A stretch of DNA of 24,489 bases from Verrucomicrobiota bacterium (GTDB lineage Bacteria > Verrucomicrobiota > Verrucomicrobiia > Opitutales > Seribacteraceae). Below are positions 3,001-9,000 of this stretch, in pieces. Made by a program: the position numbers. Each line of letters opens with the position of its first letter. Position 1 is the first letter of the stretch. The stretch spans positions 1 through 24,489 of the forward strand of contig JAQBYT010000050.1 in the NCBI GenBank assembly GCA_027622665.1, given 5' to 3'.

Positions 3001-6000
3001 TGACCAAACTGGAGGGACTGCTCCTTGGCAACAACCCCATCACCGCCGACCAGCAGGCCATGCTCAGGAAGGCTCTGCCGAACTGCGACATCGAGTTCTG
3101 ACTAAAGCAGCAAAACACTCCCCGTGAACCTCCGAACCCGCATCTCCAGAGCCGACGGCTACAGACAGCTGGAAATGTTCGCGGACGCATACCCGAATCA
3201 GCCTTTTTTTATATCTCTATAGCAAGAGCCGTGGAGTGCAGTTCAGCCCAGTTTAGGGAAAGAGTGCGCATTGCCGAGCCGAAGGGATGCGAATAGCTTT
3301 GGGGCATGATATATTTGCAGTCTGGCCTGGCATAGAACGTTACGATTAACAAATTCTGATAGCTGAATCAACTAGACCTTGCATCGCTTATAATTCTTTC
3401 GCTGCAGAGTAACTCCCTAACTGACCATTCCATTGAATAGGTGGATGTTCATGGCTTCGCAATCTCTCAATATCCAAACCAATCTTTCGCACCTTTCCAT
3501 CCACTATCTTTGTAGGATTGATCAGGGTAAAAAGGAATATCATCGGGCTTCCGGGGTTTGTCCTTCAGTTCACCTTTGCAATATTTTTTCCACTCGGCCC
3601 AACCTTTTAGTTTTAGCTTCCGGACAAATGCCCGTGCTTTTTCAAATGAGCGGTAGATTCTGTCTCGGGTGGCAATTCTGCCGGTTCCAAGCCAGTCGCC
3701 CATTCCTTTCCACCCGCTATCTTTGTAGACTCTTTCTGGGCCAACTGGAATATCATCGGGCTTCTTCGGTTTGTCCGCCAGTTCGCCTTTGCAATATTTC
3801 GCCCACTCGGCCCGGCTCTTTAGTTTTAGCTTTCGGGTGAAAGCCCGTGCTCTTACAAGTGAGCGGAAGGTTCTGTCTCGGGGTACAATTGCATCGGTGC
3901 CAAGCCAGTCACCTAGATTTGTCCATCCGTTATCCTTGTAGAATCCATTGGGGCTCGTTGGAATGTCATTGGGCTTCTTCGGTTTGTCCTGCAGTTCGCC
4001 TTTGCAATATCTTTGCCAATCGTCCCAACTTTTTAATTTTAACTTCCGAACGAACTCCCGAGCTTTAACAAAAGAGCGGTAAGTCCTGTCTCGGGTGGCA
4101 ATTCTGCCGGTTCCCAGCCAGTCGCCTAAGCTTTTCCACTCCTTGCCTTTATATTTGTCACGGGGATTTGCCGGGATATCATCGGGTTTGGGGGGTTTGT
4201 CCGCCAGTTCACCGATGCAATATTTTTGCCACTCCGCCCAATTTTTGAGTTTTAGGTTACGGACGAAAGCCCGAGCTTTAGCAAATGAGCGGTAGTTTCG
4301 ATTAAAGGTCGCAATTGTGCCGGAACCGAGCCAGTCGCCCACGCCTTTCCATCCCTTCTCTTTATAGCTTTTGCTGGGATTCGCCGGGATATCGTCGGGT
4401 TTCTGCGGTTTGTCCGCCAGTTCACCGATGCAATATTTTTGCCACTCCGCCGAATCCTTTAGTTTTAGTTTCCGAACGAATGCCCGGGCTTTGTTAAATG
4501 AGCGGTACACTTTATTATAGTTGGCAATTGTACCGGTTCCCAGCCAGTCGCCCGCGCCTTTCCAGCCTTGGTCTTTGTAGATGTTCCATGGAGCCGCTGG
4601 AATATCATCGGGCTTGGGGGGGGTGTCAGCCAGTTCACCTTTGCAAAACTTCTTCCACTCGGCCCCATTTTTCAGTTTTAGCTTCCGGACGAATGCCCGT
4701 GCATTTTCAAATGAGCGATAGTTTCTATTAAAGGTCGCAATTGCGCCGGAACCGAGCCAGTCGCCCATGCCTTTCCAGCCCTGATCTTTGTCGATTCTTT
4801 CGGGACTGGTTGGAATGTCATCGGGTTTCTGCGGTTTGTCCGCCAGTTCACCTTTACAATATTTTGACCACTCGTCCCGACTCTTTAGCTTTAGCTTCCG
4901 GGCGAATGCCCGTGCTTTTTCAAATGATTGGTAGATTCTGTCTCGGGAAGAAATTGTACCGGTTCCGAGCCAGTCCCCCGTGCTTTCCCAACCCCTGTCT
5001 TTGTAGGTGCTGGTGGGGGTCGCTGGAATATCATCGGGTTTCTGCGGTTTGTCCGCCAGTTCTCCTTTGCAATATTTCAACCACTCGAACCAACTTTTGA
5101 GTTTTAACTTTTGAGCGAATTCTCGGGCTTTTCTAAAAGGGCGGTAGATTTTATCTCGTGGAGCAATTGTTCCGGTTCCAAGCCAGTCACCTACGCCTTT
5201 CCACCCCATATTCTGATAGATTGCAGCAGGGCCTGCCGGGATATCATCTGGCTTCGCGGGTTTGTCTGCTAGTTGGCCTTTGCAATATTTTTTCCATCCA
5301 ACCCAACTATTGAGTTTAAGCTTGTGAACGAATGCACGTGCTTCTTCAAATGTGCGATAAGTTTTATCTCCTGGAGCAATTGTGCCGGTGCCGAGCCAGT
5401 CACCTCGGCCTTTCCATCCCTTATCTTCGTACGCTTGATTTGGATTTGAAGGAATATCAACGGGTTTTCTTGTATTGCCCGCCAGTTGGCCTTTGCAATA
5501 TTTGTTCCATTCGGCCCCACTTTTTAGTTTCAGCCTGTGAACGAATGTCCGGGCCTCTTCAAAAGGCATCCAAGAAAGCTTTGCCAGTTTGCCCCAAACC
5601 TTAAGCTCCACTTGCTTGGCAAATTCATCGGGGTCGACATCGATTCCATCAGGCACGGAGAAAACAAACTTTCTTTTGCCGACCGCAGGTCGTTTGCCCT
5701 GAGATACCGAGCGGAAGTACTCGACGATACGCTCATCATTGGAAGCCAAGGCGCGAAGAACCATAAGAATGGCATCATACGCTTCATTTTGCTCGATGCG
5801 TTTCTCCAGTTTCTTGGAATCGAGAACAATCGGGATAACAACGTAACCACGCTTCTTCCCTTTGCTTGGCCGCAATGCGCGACCCACGGCTTGAACGATG
5901 TCAACGGTGCTTCCTTTCGGATCGGCGAAGAGAATGCCGTCAATTTGCTTTACGTCCACGCCCTCGGTCAGGCAGCGGGCATTAGTGATTAGGCTGCGCT

Positions 6001-9000
6001 TGCAGGAAATGGCTTCGTCCAATTTGCGTTGTCGCACCGAGGTGGGCATTGCTCCGGTGACGTGAAACGTTTCCAGTTCCCCAAACTCACTGAACTTGCG
6101 GGTGATTTTATCCTGCGTCAGCTGGAATGCCTCTGCCCGAGCAATGGTCGAATGAAAGGAAATGCAATGCCGCAGGGGATGGGCCTCCATCGATTTACGA
6201 AGCTGCAGGGCGGCGGCAAGCATCTTGGCCTCAAGCTCGTCATTCCATTGCCCAAGCTTTGGCTTCACCAGTACGTTGGAGCGGATGAGCTTCTTCACCT
6301 CGTCGGTGGTTACCACCATCGTGACGATTTGGTAGTCACTGAGGATAGGTGGTTTGCAATTCAATGCTTCTTTAAAGGAGAGTAGCTCGAAGGTTTCCCC
6401 ATATACATCGGGCTCATCCATGCTGAGGATGTCGTCCCCAGTCCCTTGATATCGTCGCTCGGTAGCCGTCATGAAGAGACGCTTATCAACCTTGATGTTC
6501 CGGTCGAATAGGAGATGACCGAACAGTTTGCCTCTTGCCCCAACCGTTTTGTGCGCCTCGTCAAAGATGCCGAGATCGAATCTGAACTTGGCCTTGCGTG
6601 AAGCCTGGGCTAGTACTTGTCCGCTTTGATATGTGACTAAGGCAATGCTCGTTGACTGGGGGCGTTTGCGCAGCCATGCGGTGATTTGTTCCGGCTTGCT
6701 CTTAATTTCCACACCCAGGTCTTGCGTAAGGACAGCGACATCGTCCTTTGAAACATCCTTCACGCTTTCATCGCTACATACGCATATCCACCTGATGTCT
6801 CGTTTCGTGGCTAGTGATTCACGAGCCCAAACCTCTAGTGTTTGCCTAATGAGGGCTAAGCTCGGGACGGCAATGAGGATGCGCTTGGCTTTCAGGTCCT
6901 CGGCAATCCAGTAAGCACCGAGACTTTTTCCCGCACCACAGGGCATAATCATTTTCCCTCGCTTATTCTTTTCCTTAATAAAATGTTTCCTGGCATTGCG
7001 GATAGCGCGTTTTTGATGCTCGCGAGGAGTAAACGCTTCGATGCTTTTTGCCTTTCCGGCGATGTCGGCGTGGATGCGAGTGAAGAAGTCTTCGTCCAGT
7101 CCCCTCCATTTTTCTCCGGAACAGAAAGTGACCCTGTCGGCGTGATAGAGCTTTAGCTTGTAGCTGAAGCGGTCAACCGATGTGCATACGAGTCCAAGGG
7201 AGATGCCGTTGCATACGGTAAAGGATAAATCCGTGAAGGTGCTAAGTTCCTTTCGAGTCAGTGATTGGGCTTCATCTGTCTTGTACTTGCACTGAATAGC
7301 CCAGTAATCGCCTTCCTTGGTCTGGGCAAGCAAGTCGACACCCTCGTCGCTGTGAGGCAGGTTGAGCTTTCGATGCAGGGCATGGGGCACTTCCCCTTTG
7401 TTGATATTCCATACATGCTTCAGTGCAGTGGCGTAGGTGGGGTCCAGTTTGAGGTAATACTCTGTTAGAGCCTCGAAGCAGTTTCCCTTTTCCTTCTCCG
7501 ACAAGTTAGCGAGCTGCTCCTTGAAGGAAGCCCAATTCTTTGACTTCTTTAGAATGCCAATCGGTGAAGCAGTAGTTGTCAAAATTCGACGTCTCGGCAG
7601 CGGAGTTCCAGTTGGTAGCTGATTTTTCTTTTTAGACTATCGTCGATGGTCGGTGTCTTTTTGAGAACTGCTGAGCGAATGTTCTTTGGGTTCAGTACCA
7701 ATAGAGGATCTCGACTAGTGCTTTCTACGAACCAACCGGGCAAGGCGAGTATGGGAAAAACCTCAATGGAAGTATCGAGGCTAGCGCTGAGGTGCTTGGA
7801 CAAAAGGCGAGCGTTGTGCGTTGCCTGGCCTATGCCTTTCTTGGTGGTGCGATGCGGGAAGCGGAGTTCCTTGCCGTCGAATTTCACCTCGTAGTTTTTG
7901 CCGTTGGCGGCTTCCGTGGGTTTGCGGTAGGTTTTAGTCTCGATGGCGAAGACTCCGTTGGGGCCAACTAGTATGTGGTGATGTTGCCCGTCTTGCCGTC
8001 GGGTTCGATTGGGAAGTCGTGAAAGACTTCAAAGCCATCCTTTAGCATCGAGTGAAGCATTCCCCCTACAAGCCTCTCGCCCCTGAGACCGAGGAAGTAA
8101 TTCGCCAAGGAACGAATCTGCTTGGACAAAAAGAACGAACAGGCAAACCCCGCCCCGAACAAAAGAGCAAACCAAACCCACGAGCTCAACCCGAACCAGA
8201 GCAGTCCTGTGGATACTTTGCCGGCTGAGGAAAGGAAAGAAATGGGTCCCAGGCTCAAGAAGACAAGAGTGAGCAGGCATCTCTCCGTCCGCGCCTCCAC
8301 CTCGAGCCCCAAACTGTGACCGGGCTCTCTCATCATCTTCTCTCCCGTAGGCACGGGGCTCTTGTGGTAAAGAAAGGTCTTGGAGCGAAAGGCAAAAAGC
8401 CAAGTGCCCCCAACCAGACCGCAAATGTAACCCAGCGTGAGAATCGAGGTAATCATTACTCTATCTCTTAGAGACTAAGGAGTTCAGTCAACGTTTTAGA
8501 GTTTTGACTATCCGGCGCATATAAACCCCAACTCACCGTTTGGATGCGAACTCATTGATGTATTGACCGAGGTGGAGCGGGGAGTAGGGTTGTGGGATGA
8601 GGAAACTACTGACTACCATGTTCGTCGCACTGCTGATGGTAGGGTGTGGAGGAGAAGAAACTACTAAAGTCGTTGTGGATGAAGACTCTACATCGAAAGC
8701 TATCACTAAAACTGATTGTTCCGCCGTCAAAGGCAAAGCTTTCACCATAGCCGACCTGTCCATGGAGATGCTTTGGGTGGAGCCGGGGACGTTCGAGATG
8801 GGTAGCCAGACTACGGAGGCGGGTCGTGGCAATAATGAAACCCCGTACACGGTGACTTTGACGAGCGGTTTCTACCTCGGCAAGCACGAGGTGACGCAGA
8901 CCCAGTGGGAGAAGGTGATGGGAAGCAACCCGAACAAGTTCAAGGGAGCGGACCGTCCCGTGGAAGAAGTGTCTTGGAACGACGTGACGTCTTTCTGCGA

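What a model noticed while it worked through the whole genome (the two positions that open the first line are those of the whole stretch)
3467..7582. Mrr nuclease-SF2 helicase with ten exact 71-residue 'integrase repeats' instead of a methyltransferase
g02401 (1,371 aa) has the N-terminal Mrr-type nuclease and SF2 motor of single-chain Type ISP/IIG restriction enzymes, but where these carry their methyltransferase and target-recognition domains it has ten gap-free tandem copies of a basic 71-aa unit (Pfam INT_rpt at weak score). I read the repeat array as a modular nucleic-acid reader that aims the nuclease-translocase, with a few hypervariable positions per unit setting specificity, i.e. a methylase-less restriction/defence enzyme with a TALE-like reading head. 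New would be a function for the uncharacterised INT_rpt repeat and a possible programmable DNA-binding scaffold.
Evidence so far: Pfam: Mrr_cat_2 45-143 (2e-13), ResIII 184-374 (7e-15), Helicase_C 466-572; PADLOC: residues 26-626 match the N-terminal third of REase_MTase_IIG (4e-90, model 16-650 of 1646) and REase_MTase_I (6e-54), nothing matches 650-1371. Repeats: units start at 674, 745 ... 1313, all 71 aa, no indel; consensus F..AR.F..KLKLK...EW.KYCKGELADKP.KPDDIP..P...YK..GWK..GDWLG.G.I; variation confined to columns 2-3, 15-17, 20, 32, 39-45, 47-48, 52-53, 63-68; TRF period 213 bp x 7.9, 74% match. The 698-aa array hits Exonuc_X-T_C (exonuclease I C-terminal part, 7.6e-13, 4 stretches), two units alone hit PF14882 INT_rpt (6.7e-5, below cut-off); ESM Atlas nearest clusters (0.93-0.94) carry INT_rpt 49-67% and ExoI [...]
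(Added by a program. Inside this text positions count along the whole contig: contig position 1 is position 1 of the stretch shown here. "Call 12" and the like, gene names such as g00115 and contig names such as C1 are that model's own, and its searches are not shown. The text may have been shortened before it was handed on; [...] marks where a part breaks off. The agent that wrote the report below was given it as the finding of a first reader that could run no searches.)

Follow-up and report, generated by a model that had tools for sequence, protein, structure and literature searches.

The report
Nuclease-motor enzyme with integrase-repeat tail
This bacterial gene joins a DNA-cutting domain and a DNA motor of the restriction-enzyme type to ten copies of a small, positively charged repeat of untested function in place of the usual methylase and site reader; the design is real and widespread, probably a stand-alone DNA-targeting (defence-type) enzyme, but the repeats do not look like a TALE-style code.

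Summary
Window 3467-7582 (-) encodes a 1,371-aa protein with an intact Mrr-type nuclease and an SF2 motor. These are collinear with the Type ISP enzyme LlaBIII (E 1.2e-57). Ten gap-free 71-aa units follow, the last cut to 59 aa.

Three corrections. The units are 54-76% identical, not near-identical. Synonymous sites are near saturation (median dS about 1), so this is not recent gene conversion. With deep alignments AlphaFold gives pLDDT 89 (two units) and 94.7 (three units, pTM 0.68). No solved structure resembles the model (best Z 2.5).

The architecture is a large, uncharacterised, patchily distributed single-gene family: at least 564 species genomes, with 6-17 units. It has no conserved neighbour and no methyltransferase. 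The unexplained upstream genes are one frameshifted NERD gene.

The same repeat sits on SNF2 helicase-methyltransferases, an integrase, a GIY-YIG nuclease and a GntR regulator. I therefore read the basic array (net +61) as the DNA-engaging tail of a methylase-less nuclease-translocase.

A TALE-like code is not supported. Variation is diffuse and neutral-looking, and arrays are more conserved than the enzyme part between close relatives. This scan has met the architecture before on other DNA. Function remains untested.

The parts
3467..7582 (-). Whole gene: 1,371-aa Mrr nuclease, ISP-type SF2 motor and INT_rpt array (stop codon at 3467-3469)
   Evidence: ORF list and translation. Of the 121 proteins in the set (P0001 plus its 120 best homologues), 119 have nuclease + motor + repeats by local profile checks.
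7154..7450 (-). Mrr-type PD-(D/E)xK nuclease domain (aa 45-143); motif residues D79, D83, Q97, K99
   Evidence: Pfam Mrr_cat_2 1.9e-13. D79, G81, D83, Q97 and K99 are invariant in 26 homologues and align with the LlaBIII nuclease.
5639..7510 (-). Region collinear with the Type ISP nuclease-motor module (aa 25-648). It includes ResIII (aa 184-374, nt 6461-7033) and Helicase_C (aa 466-572, nt 5867-6187). Motifs: Walker A G218/K219, DEAH 341-344, TAT 372-374, motif VI Q564/G567/R568/R571.
   Evidence: PDB sequence search: LlaBIII 4xqk E 1.2e-57, LlaGI 5ffj E 5.1e-45. PADLOC REase_MTase_IIG 4.4e-90. Motif residues invariant in 26 homologues.
5564..5638 (-). Short connector (aa 649-673) between motor and array
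   Evidence: No family match (third query). The array profile starts at aa 674.
3470..5563 (-). Ten tandem INT_rpt-type units (aa 674-1371), 213 nt each; the last is 177 nt. Net charge +61, pI 9.8.
   Evidence: AF2 on two and three units gives pLDDT 89.0 and 94.7.
7579..8456 (-). Upstream neighbour: one frameshifted NERD-domain gene with a hydrophobic N-terminal part that I read as transmembrane by eye (no predictor was run). It is not a conserved partner.
   Evidence: The three-frame translation shows the reading frame switching near 7970-7990. Window 7579-7998 (-) hits Pfam NERD at 1.4e-7, 32.5 bits against a cut-off of 22.1, profile positions 38-110/111. tblastn finds no match in 80 related loci.

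Best explanation
The gene encodes a stand-alone, ATP-driven nuclease-translocase derived from the Type ISP restriction-enzyme lineage. The coupler, methyltransferase and target-recognition half has been replaced by an ordered array of ten small, basic INT_rpt modules.

Shown:
- The Mrr nuclease and SF2 motor are homologous to LlaBIII/LlaGI and keep all catalytic motifs.
- The array is a real, strongly constrained repeat with a confidently predicted, regular structure.
- The gene is a solitary accessory gene of a large, patchily distributed family.

Inferred:
- The array is the DNA-engaging tail. It lies along DNA through conserved basic residues (R5, K14, K24, R67, R70 of each unit) and so anchors or targets the enzyme.
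- The motor then moves on double-stranded DNA.
- The nuclease cuts on stalling or collision, as in Type ISP enzymes.
- The biological role is most likely restriction of incoming DNA without self-methylation.

How self DNA is spared is unknown.
For: Nuclease-motor homology:
- Collinear with LlaBIII 4xqk (E 1.2e-57) and with PADLOC REase_MTase_IIG (4.4e-90).
- Nuclease and helicase motifs are invariant in 26 homologues.

Array properties:
- Each unit has net charge +4 to +10; the array is +61, pI 9.8.
- 28 columns are under strong purifying selection (pN/pS 0.04) although dS is about 1.
- Family-wide near-invariant basic positions are R5, K14, K24, R67 and R70 (401 units).
- Unit spacing is 71 aa in 881 and 66 aa in 362 of 1,415 spacings.
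- AF2 pLDDT is 89.0 and 94.7, linkers score 90 or more, and pTM rises from 0.56 to 0.68 when a unit is added.

Fusion partners of the same repeat all act on DNA:
- ISP-type motor with or without Mrr.
- SNF2/DEAD helicase + Methyltransf_8, with the array at the N-terminus (P0272, P0274, P0312, P0315, P0477).
- Integrase_2 (P0415), GIY-YIG (P0523) and GntR HTH (P0416).
- Giant-virus SF2 helicases by fold.

Parallel tail on the same motor clade: in Streptomyces plasmids it carries helicase-associated (HA) tails. A preprint passage says HA domains were 'previously shown to bind DNA' (PMC12191111).

Accessory and defence-like signals:
- At least 564 species genomes across many phyla hold a relative.
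- 0 of 24 same-family genomes searched have it.
- 25 of 125 nearest neighbours in 21 related loci match PADLOC models at E <= 1e-10: SoFic x5, IetA, BrxL, SduA, TIR and others.
- Integrases, transposases, PIN and ParE are also among the neighbours.
Against: - There is no direct evidence that the array binds DNA.
- No solved structure resembles it, so no binding mode can be borrowed. I could not inspect model coordinates, surface charge or PAE.
- The window's own neighbourhood is not a defence island. It holds LRR, MORN, FGE-sulfatase-like and PSCyt/DUF1501 genes, with no PADLOC hit.
- The neighbour counts have no background control.
- A nuclease-motor without a methylase raises an unsolved self-toxicity problem.
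- The array is significantly more conserved than the enzyme part in two close clusters (Fisher p 6e-4 and 7e-8). Yet it is fully remodelled between proteins whose front halves are 81-82% identical. This pattern fits a specificity module better than a purely generic electrostatic tether.
- The HA-tailed relatives sit near the ends of linear plasmids. That points to DNA-maintenance roles rather than defence.
Confidence: 0.4

Rival explanations
1. TALE-like programmable reader. Each unit reads one or a few bases through a handful of hypervariable residues, and the array aims the nuclease-motor at a long specific sequence.
For: - Strict unit length and a regular, confidently predicted array.
- Unit-specific residues are conserved between close relatives (0/847 and 2/868 variable columns).
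- Arrays are completely different between proteins with 81-82% identical front halves, as target-recognition domains tend to be.
Against: - Units are 71 aa, not a short two-helix hairpin.
- Units differ at about a third of their columns (54-76% identity).
- The 16 most variable columns have pN/pS about 1.0, not above 1, although they were chosen for high pN.
- In the more diverged cluster no column stands out as hypervariable (at most 0.4 variable).
- Unit number changes between relatives that are at least 90% identical in 2 of 5 clusters (5-10 and 7-11 units).
- No similarity to TALE, PPR or PUF in 48,161 chains (best Z 2.5).
Confidence: 0.08
2. Type IV-like enzyme. The array recognises a feature of foreign DNA (modified bases, ends or unusual structure) rather than a sequence, which would explain the missing methylase. 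It would be comparable in logic to SauUSI, which has a nuclease, an SF2 motor and a C-terminal reader.
For: - No methyltransferase in the gene or among neighbours.
- Single-gene, patchy distribution.
- Weak PADLOC hit to mREase_IV at residues 482-582 (E 0.004).
- A preprint passage describes nuclease fusions whose C-terminal domains set modified-DNA specificity, including HA-domain fusions (PMC12191111).
Against: - No known modification-reader domain (SRA, EVE/PUA, DUF3427, winged helix) is detected.
- Ten to seventeen copies of a reader is unlike known Type IV enzymes.
- The weak mREase_IV hit lies in the generic helicase C-domain.
Confidence: 0.15
3. Not defence. The enzyme is a DNA repair, recombination or mobile-element maintenance helicase-nuclease, and the array holds it on DNA or at a particular chromosomal or plasmid structure.
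For: - The same motor clade with HA tails lies near the ends of Streptomyces linear plasmids (for example record positions 922-2295 of 309,936 and 176027-177397 of 177,943).
- The repeat also occurs on an integrase and a GntR regulator.
- The window's neighbours are housekeeping genes.
- Arrays are under purifying selection between close relatives.
Against: - Patchy presence: 0 of 24 same-family genomes, 1 of 16 other same-order genomes at 33% identity.
- No conserved operon partner.
- The closest characterised relatives are restriction enzymes.
- Many neighbours in other genomes are toxin-antitoxin, defence or mobile genes.
Confidence: 0.2
4. The array binds something other than DNA, and DNA contact is left to the motor. 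Candidates are a protein such as SSB, RNA, or another polymer.
For: - The helical first part of the unit weakly matches the C-terminal part of exonuclease I models (Exonuc_X-T_C 7.6e-13 summed over 4 stretches; PRK11779 positions 410-437).
- Many conserved aromatic residues and prolines could form a peptide-binding surface.
- Repeat-only proteins exist (P0257 with 13 units, P0299 with 9 units on a 277-kb contig).
Against: - All identified fusion partners are DNA enzymes or a DNA-binding regulator.
- Strong net positive charge on every unit.
- Exonuclease I chains of the PDB were not matched by the unit profiles at E <= 10.
- The protein has no export signal that I could see in its N-terminus (by eye only).
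Confidence: 0.15

Closest known systems
Type ISP restriction-modification enzymes LlaBIII and LlaGI (PDB 4xqk, 5ffj)
   Same: An N-terminal Mrr-family nuclease followed by an SF2 helicase-like ATPase, collinear over about 620 residues (E 1.2e-57 and 5.1e-45). PADLOC REase_MTase_IIG model positions 16-650 match. Both are single polypeptides.
   Different: No methyltransferase and no target-recognition domain, and at most a stub of the coupler. Residues 674-1371 are ten INT_rpt units. Type ISP enzymes protect self DNA by methylation and start from a recognised site (abstract of PMC4666363, seen in the search listing).
Other INT_rpt (Pfam PF14882, formerly PHINT_rpt) proteins: SF2 helicases with C-terminal arrays, SNF2 helicase-methyltransferases with N-terminal arrays, repeat-only proteins, giant-virus helicases
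   Same: The same repeat. The window's unit profile finds 5,392 cluster representatives at E <= 1e-3. NCBI names some relatives 'integrase repeat-containing protein'. Function is unstudied in every paper I could search.
   Different: The window's units are the long 71-aa form and score just under the Pfam cut-off (25.8 against 26.5 bits for two units). Here the partner is a restriction-type nuclease-motor.
Helicase-associated (HA, PF03457) domain helicases of Streptomyces linear plasmids
   Same: The same ISP-type motor clade (24-31% identity over residues about 176-645 in most of the rows shown). It carries a tail of small repeated helical domains in the same position. One relative of the window protein, P0064, carries both INT_rpt units and a terminal HA domain. 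HA is reported to bind DNA (passage in PMC12191111 citing Mills 2013; the original paper was not held).
   Different: HA and INT_rpt are not detectably related (hhalign probability 0.6%). The Streptomyces matches start after the nuclease domain.
TALE repeats
   Same: Tandem units of fixed length on a DNA-acting protein, with within-protein similarity of units.
   Different: The unit is 71 aa against about 34. There is no di-residue hypervariable site, variation is diffuse and neutral-looking, and no fold match was found.
SauUSI-type Type IV enzymes (nuclease + SF2 motor + C-terminal reader)
   Same: Single-chain, methylase-less nuclease-motor logic (abstract of PMC7913695 in the listing; passage in PMC12191111).
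   Different: SauUSI has a PLD nuclease and a different C-terminal domain. No such domains are found here.

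Membership tests
Type ISP restriction-modification enzyme | N-terminal Mrr-family PD-(D/E)xK nuclease | tested here: met
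   Mrr_cat_2 1.9e-13. D79, D83, Q97 and K99 are invariant in 26 homologues and align to the LlaBIII nuclease.
Type ISP restriction-modification enzyme | SF2 helicase-like ATPase directly after the nuclease, collinear with LlaBIII/LlaGI | tested here: met
   4xqk E 1.2e-57 (query 25-648 against chain 26-676) and 5ffj E 5.1e-45. Walker A, DEAH, motif III and motif VI are invariant.
Type ISP restriction-modification enzyme | Coupler domain between motor and methyltransferase | tested here: inconclusive
   The alignment to LlaBIII ends at chain residue 676. Only about 25 residues (649-673) lie between the motor and the array.
Type ISP restriction-modification enzyme | Methyltransferase domain in the same chain | tested here: not met
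   No methyltransferase family in Pfam, PADLOC or NCBIfam scans. PADLOC model positions 651-1646 are unmatched, and residues 674-1371 are filled by repeats.
Type ISP restriction-modification enzyme | C-terminal target-recognition domain | tested here: not met
   Same scans. The C-terminal half is the repeat array.
Pfam INT_rpt (PF14882) | Score at or above the curated cut-off (26.5 bits) | tested here: inconclusive
   The whole protein is not listed at E <= 1. Two units score 25.8 bits. 8 of 10 single units hit at E <= 10, best 0.011.
Pfam INT_rpt (PF14882) | Clear homology to proteins that pass the cut-off | tested here: met
   The window's two-unit query finds P0242 (E 0) and P0267 (3.6e-230). 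These score 82.5 and 156.5 bits on INT_rpt. Most of the 120 best homologues carry precomputed PF14882.
TALE-type repeat reader | Near-identical units with variation focused on one or two adjacent residues | tested here: not met
   54-76% identity between units. 16 columns have pN >= 0.35, scattered along the unit, with pN/pS about 1.0.
TALE-type repeat reader | Alpha-solenoid superhelix fold | tested here: inconclusive
   No TALE or other solenoid among the matches: Foldseek best E 2.3-3.0, VIA best Z 2.4-2.5. Model coordinates could not be inspected.
Helicase-associated domain (HA, PF03457) | Profile similarity of the unit to HA | tested here: not met
   hhalign of 401 units against 19 HA domains gives probability 0.6%. 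There is no HA hit in the window protein.
SauUSI-like Type IV restriction enzyme | Dependence of cleavage on modified DNA | not testable with these tools
   This needs biochemistry or phage assays. No known modification-reader domain was detected.
NERD domain protein (upstream gene) | NERD profile over the cut-off in one intact reading frame | tested here: not met
   NERD scores 32.5 bits against a cut-off of 22.1, but only for profile positions 38-110. The N-terminal part lies in another frame, so there is a frameshift.

The most novel reading that the evidence does not exclude
The INT_rpt array is a previously unseen, rigid protein fold that tracks along DNA with a fixed footprint per 71-aa (or 66-aa) unit. 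Its unit-specific surface residues are frozen between close relatives but wholly different between proteins with 81-82% identical enzyme halves. These residues would set a long composite target, which would make the family a naturally modular, methylase-less restriction system and a new DNA-binding scaffold.
Probability: 0.12. Interest if true: 0.85.

Novelty: new variant of a known kind. Interest (0 to 1): 0.55.

Why it matters
If the best reading is right, one of the best-understood restriction motors has been re-used, in at least 564 species genomes, with a completely different targeting part and no methylase. That poses a clean question about how self DNA is spared.

The repeat occurs in about 5,400 protein clusters and on several kinds of DNA enzymes. 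It has a high-confidence predicted structure with no solved look-alike and no published function that I could find. A single binding experiment or structure would therefore annotate thousands of proteins.

For the window itself the gene is one more member of that family. The scan has met the architecture before.

Tried and rejected
- Solved relatives of the repeat by sequence. The unit profile (A1) gave 4 chains at E <= 10. The best was a 'Tet4 Variant' chain (E 0.0085) with no stretch passing on its own. The two-unit profile (A2) gave glyoxylate carboligase (E 0.2) and a Terfa protein chain (E 0.3). I treat all of these as noise.
- Fold searches of both models. Foldseek against PDB: best E 3.0 and 2.3. 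VIA over 48,161 chains: only 3 chains at Z >= 2 each time, best 2.4 and 2.5. This shows no match was found, not that the fold is new.
- HA-domain homology: rejected (hhalign 0.6%). A 69-aa HA stretch of P0064 found no PDB chain.
- Upstream genes as partners: neither half of the NERD gene has a match in 80 related loci.
- Conserved neighbours: 706 neighbouring ORFs of 80 loci were clustered, and the largest cluster spans 5 loci (Fic-type).
- Methyltransferase neighbours. None among the 125 nearest neighbours scanned, nor among the 6 I had first left out of the 131. Of those 6, three are large housekeeping genes, two are pieces of broken copies of the helicase gene, and one is a Mu-type transposase inside a copy. 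More distant ORFs were clustered but not all were scanned against Pfam.
- Synteny with same-genus genomes: abandoned. The best flank match is 61% identical and sits on a 9.5-kb contig end.
- Phages: 1 of 50,697 records has a weak match to three units (26% identity).
- Plasmids: 740 records match the front half only, and 0 cover 80% of the protein.
- PF26016, listed among precomputed domains, is not in the local Pfam copy.
- Mills 2013 (PMC3637686) is not held.
- No supplementary files were consulted.

Full report
**Observation.** The minus-strand ORF 3467-7582 (TTG start, 1,371 aa) is as described.
- Pfam finds Mrr_cat_2 (45-143, 1.9e-13), ResIII (184-374, 6.8e-15) and Helicase_C (466-572, 3.9e-8).
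- PADLOC matches residues 26-626 to positions 16-650 of the 1,646-position REase_MTase_IIG model (4.4e-90). No PADLOC model matches beyond residue 646.
- NCBIfam gives only weak sub-threshold helicase hits.
- From residue 674 there are ten units of exactly 71 aa without indels. The tenth stops after 59 aa at a DW[LF]G-type ending that relatives also end on.
- TRF reports 213 bp x 9.5 copies at 3534-5563 with 74% matches.
- A profile of the ten units finds ten matches in the whole 4.5-Mb assembly, all in this gene.

**Front half.** Residues 25-648 align collinearly with LlaBIII (4xqk, chain 26-676, E 1.2e-57), and 187-647 align with LlaGI (5ffj, E 5.1e-45). In an alignment of 26 homologues the following are invariant:
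- nuclease motif residues D79, G81, D83, Q97, K99;
- Walker A G218/K219;
- DEAH 341-344;
- TAT 372-374;
- motif VI Q564/G567/R568/R571.

So an active nuclease and motor are expected. Type ISP enzymes are defined as Mrr nuclease + SF2 ATPase + coupler + methyltransferase + DNA-recognition domain (abstract of PMC4666363 in the listing). Here the last two are absent and the coupler is at most a stub. The protein works from the same front module but is not a Type ISP enzyme.

**Anatomy and evolution of the repeat.**
- Units are 54-76% identical in protein and 65-82% in DNA.
- Nei-Gojobori estimates give median dS about 1.0 and dN/dS 0.24. 28 columns have pN/pS 0.04. The 16 most variable columns have pN/pS about 1.0, even though they were chosen for high pN. 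The units are therefore old, not recently homogenised. The variable positions look relaxed rather than positively selected.
- Every unit is basic (+4 to +10). The array has net charge +61 and pI 9.8.
- Across 401 sampled units from the family, near-invariant positions are F1, A4, R5, F7, L11, L13, K14, E18, W19, K24, P34, D36, I37, P38, P41, Y45, G49, W50, G54-G58, T59, G60, A63, R67, Y69 and R70. The 'linker' is thus as conserved as the core.
- In 170 long relatives the unit number is 6-17 (mode 8). Unit spacing is 71 aa in 881 and 66 aa in 362 of 1,415 cases.

**Array against enzyme half.**
- The three closest homologues (P0004, P0011, P0014) are 81-82% identical in the front half. They have 8, 7 and 8 units, no positional correspondence, and no unit more than 69% identical to any window unit.
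- Within clusters of at least 90% identity, unit number is constant in 3 of 5 and varies in 2 of 5 (5-10 and 7-11).
- Variable columns, front half against array, are 9/672 against 0/847, 25/655 against 2/868, and 171/675 against 277/838 in the most diverged cluster.
- Fisher p values for these three are 6e-4, 7e-8 and 1e-3.
- So arrays are tightly kept in the short term and replaced in the medium term. I cannot fully explain this pattern. It keeps some form of specificity alive, but it is not the TALE picture.

**Structure.**
- With 128 and 104 aligned natural two- and three-unit proteins, AlphaFold2 gives mean pLDDT 89.0 (pTM 0.56) for two units and 94.7 (pTM 0.68) for three.
- Each unit has two main helices (positions 1-10 and 16-23), short helices at 41-44 and 53-57, and long ordered Pro/Trp-rich loops.
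- Linker blocks score 90 or more, and pTM rises on adding a unit. I read this as a defined inter-unit geometry. This is an inference from scores, since I could not see coordinates.
- Neither Foldseek (best E 2.3-3.0) nor an exhaustive alignment to 48,161 PDB representatives (best Z 2.4-2.5) finds a look-alike.
- A 2021 survey table lists PHINT_rpt (PF14882) with a low-scoring model and no useful PDB match (passage seen, PMC8078820).
- Among predicted viral structures, the best match is an unnamed 309-aa protein (E 2.5e-6). SF2 helicases of giant viruses follow (E 0.013-0.2).

**Family and architectures.**
- The whole-protein search gives 2,457 hits among 7,998 scored candidates. All 120 best are 1,087-1,656 aa.
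- By local checks, 119 of the 121 proteins in the set (P0001 plus its 120 best hits) have nuclease + motor + repeats.
They span Verrucomicrobiota, Planctomycetota, Lentisphaerae, Desulfobacterota, Acidobacteriota, Bacteroidota, Campylobacterota and others. Nearly all of the 80 records kept are metagenome-assembled genomes.
- The gene was not found in 0 of 24 same-family genomes searched. It was found in 1 of 16 other same-order genomes, at 33% identity in an 1,855-aa frame.
- The unit profile matches 5,392 of 1.84 billion cluster representatives at E <= 1e-3, of which 1,227 are at 1e-30.
- I scanned the 44 longest of the best 150, a length-biased pick:

| Architecture | Count |
|---|---|
| Mrr + helicase | 19 |
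| Helicase only | 4 |
| N-terminally cut helicase | 7 |
| Helicase + Methyltransf_8, array N-terminal | 1 |
| Integrase_2 | 1 |
| GntR | 1 |
| GIY-YIG (weak, 26.5 bits) | 1 |
| Repeats or nothing else | 10 |

- Four further proteins have an N-terminal array with Methyltransf_8/_11 (precomputed domains; array positions). A local Pfam scan of one of them, P0272, shows SNF2-type helicase and Methyltransf_8 domains.
- In plasmids of cultured bacteria only the front half is found: 740 records, 0 covering 80% of the protein. They are annotated as Type ISP enzymes or, in about 409 Streptomyces records, mostly as 'Helicase associated domain protein', often close to record ends.
- HA and INT_rpt are unrelated by profile comparison (0.6%), but they occupy the same tail position. 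One relative, P0064, has both.

**Context.**
- In the window the gene is flanked by LRR and MORN proteins on one side. On the other side are an FGE-sulfatase-like gene, a glycosidase-like gene, tRNA-Phe and PSCyt/DUF1501 genes.
It is absent from the 80 related loci.
- Across those loci no neighbour is conserved: the largest cluster of 706 ORFs spans 5 loci.
- No methyltransferase is among the 131 nearest neighbours.
- 25 of the 125 neighbours scanned hit PADLOC models at E <= 1e-10. No background control was run, so I treat this as suggestive only.

**Mechanism.**
- Shown: an intact restriction-type nuclease-motor; a constrained, ordered, basic repeat array in place of the methylase and reader; solitary accessory status.
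- Inferred: the array engages DNA and anchors or targets the enzyme, the motor translocates on dsDNA, and cutting follows stalling or collision as in Type ISP enzymes (abstract of PMC7049714 in the listing). The role would be restriction of foreign DNA.
- Unknown: how self DNA is spared.
- Rivals: a modular sequence code, a Type IV-like reader of modified DNA, a non-defence DNA-maintenance role, or a non-DNA ligand. Each is scored separately in the report sections.

**Novelty and limits.**
- Searches for INT_rpt, PF14882, 'integrase repeat unit', 'integrase repeat-containing', PHINT_rpt and 'phage-integrase repeat' found no functional study.
- Earlier notes of this scan describe the same and related architectures on other DNA. 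This is therefore a further, large member of an uncharacterised variant of a known enzyme kind, not a first sighting.
- All functional statements about the array rest on inference. No supplements were read.

Noticed in passing
window 7579-8456 (-): The two small upstream ORFs are one NERD-domain gene with a hydrophobic N-terminal part (read as transmembrane by eye), split by a frameshift near 7970-7990. Its stop overlaps the helicase start by 4 nt.
   Followed up: yes
window 12278-12353 (-): tRNA-Phe (GAA). The 156-aa ORF called over it (12248-12718 +) is probably spurious.
   Followed up: partly
window 1304-1981 (+) and 2043-3101 (+): A MORN_2-repeat protein and a leucine-rich-repeat protein with an SHD1-like N-terminal part. 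Their 72-bp and 66-bp DNA periodicities show up in TRF.
   Followed up: no
window 8597-9388 (+) and 9220-11418 (+): The FGE-sulfatase-like ORF matches only profile positions 4-194 of 255 and overlaps the start of the next 732-aa ORF. It may be a truncated or frameshifted gene.
   Followed up: no
window 22587-24181 (+): Small ORFs with weak MerR / Phage_Nu1 / Xre-like helix-turn-helix hits at the contig end. This may be a remnant of a mobile element.
   Followed up: no
proteins P0272, P0274, P0312, P0315, P0477: A second architecture: 7-9 INT_rpt units at the N-terminus, then an SNF2/DEAD helicase and a C-terminal Methyltransf_8/_11 domain, on contigs up to 1.3 Mb.
   Followed up: partly
L058 (about 8001-14158): One copy of the helicase gene in an Acidobacteriota chromosome appears interrupted by a Mu-type transposase ORF (L058:9924-11453). 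A Mutator-family transposase lies just upstream.
   Followed up: partly
plasmid hits H46, H49, H51-H54, H58, H60: Streptomyces 'Helicase associated domain protein' genes with the same motor clade lie within a few kb of the ends of linear plasmid records.
   Followed up: no
clusters of P0028 and P0264: Between near-identical relatives the repeat array varies significantly less than the nuclease-motor half (0/847 against 9/672 and 2/868 against 25/655 variable columns). At 81-82% front-half identity the arrays share no corresponding units. This is unexplained.
   Followed up: partly
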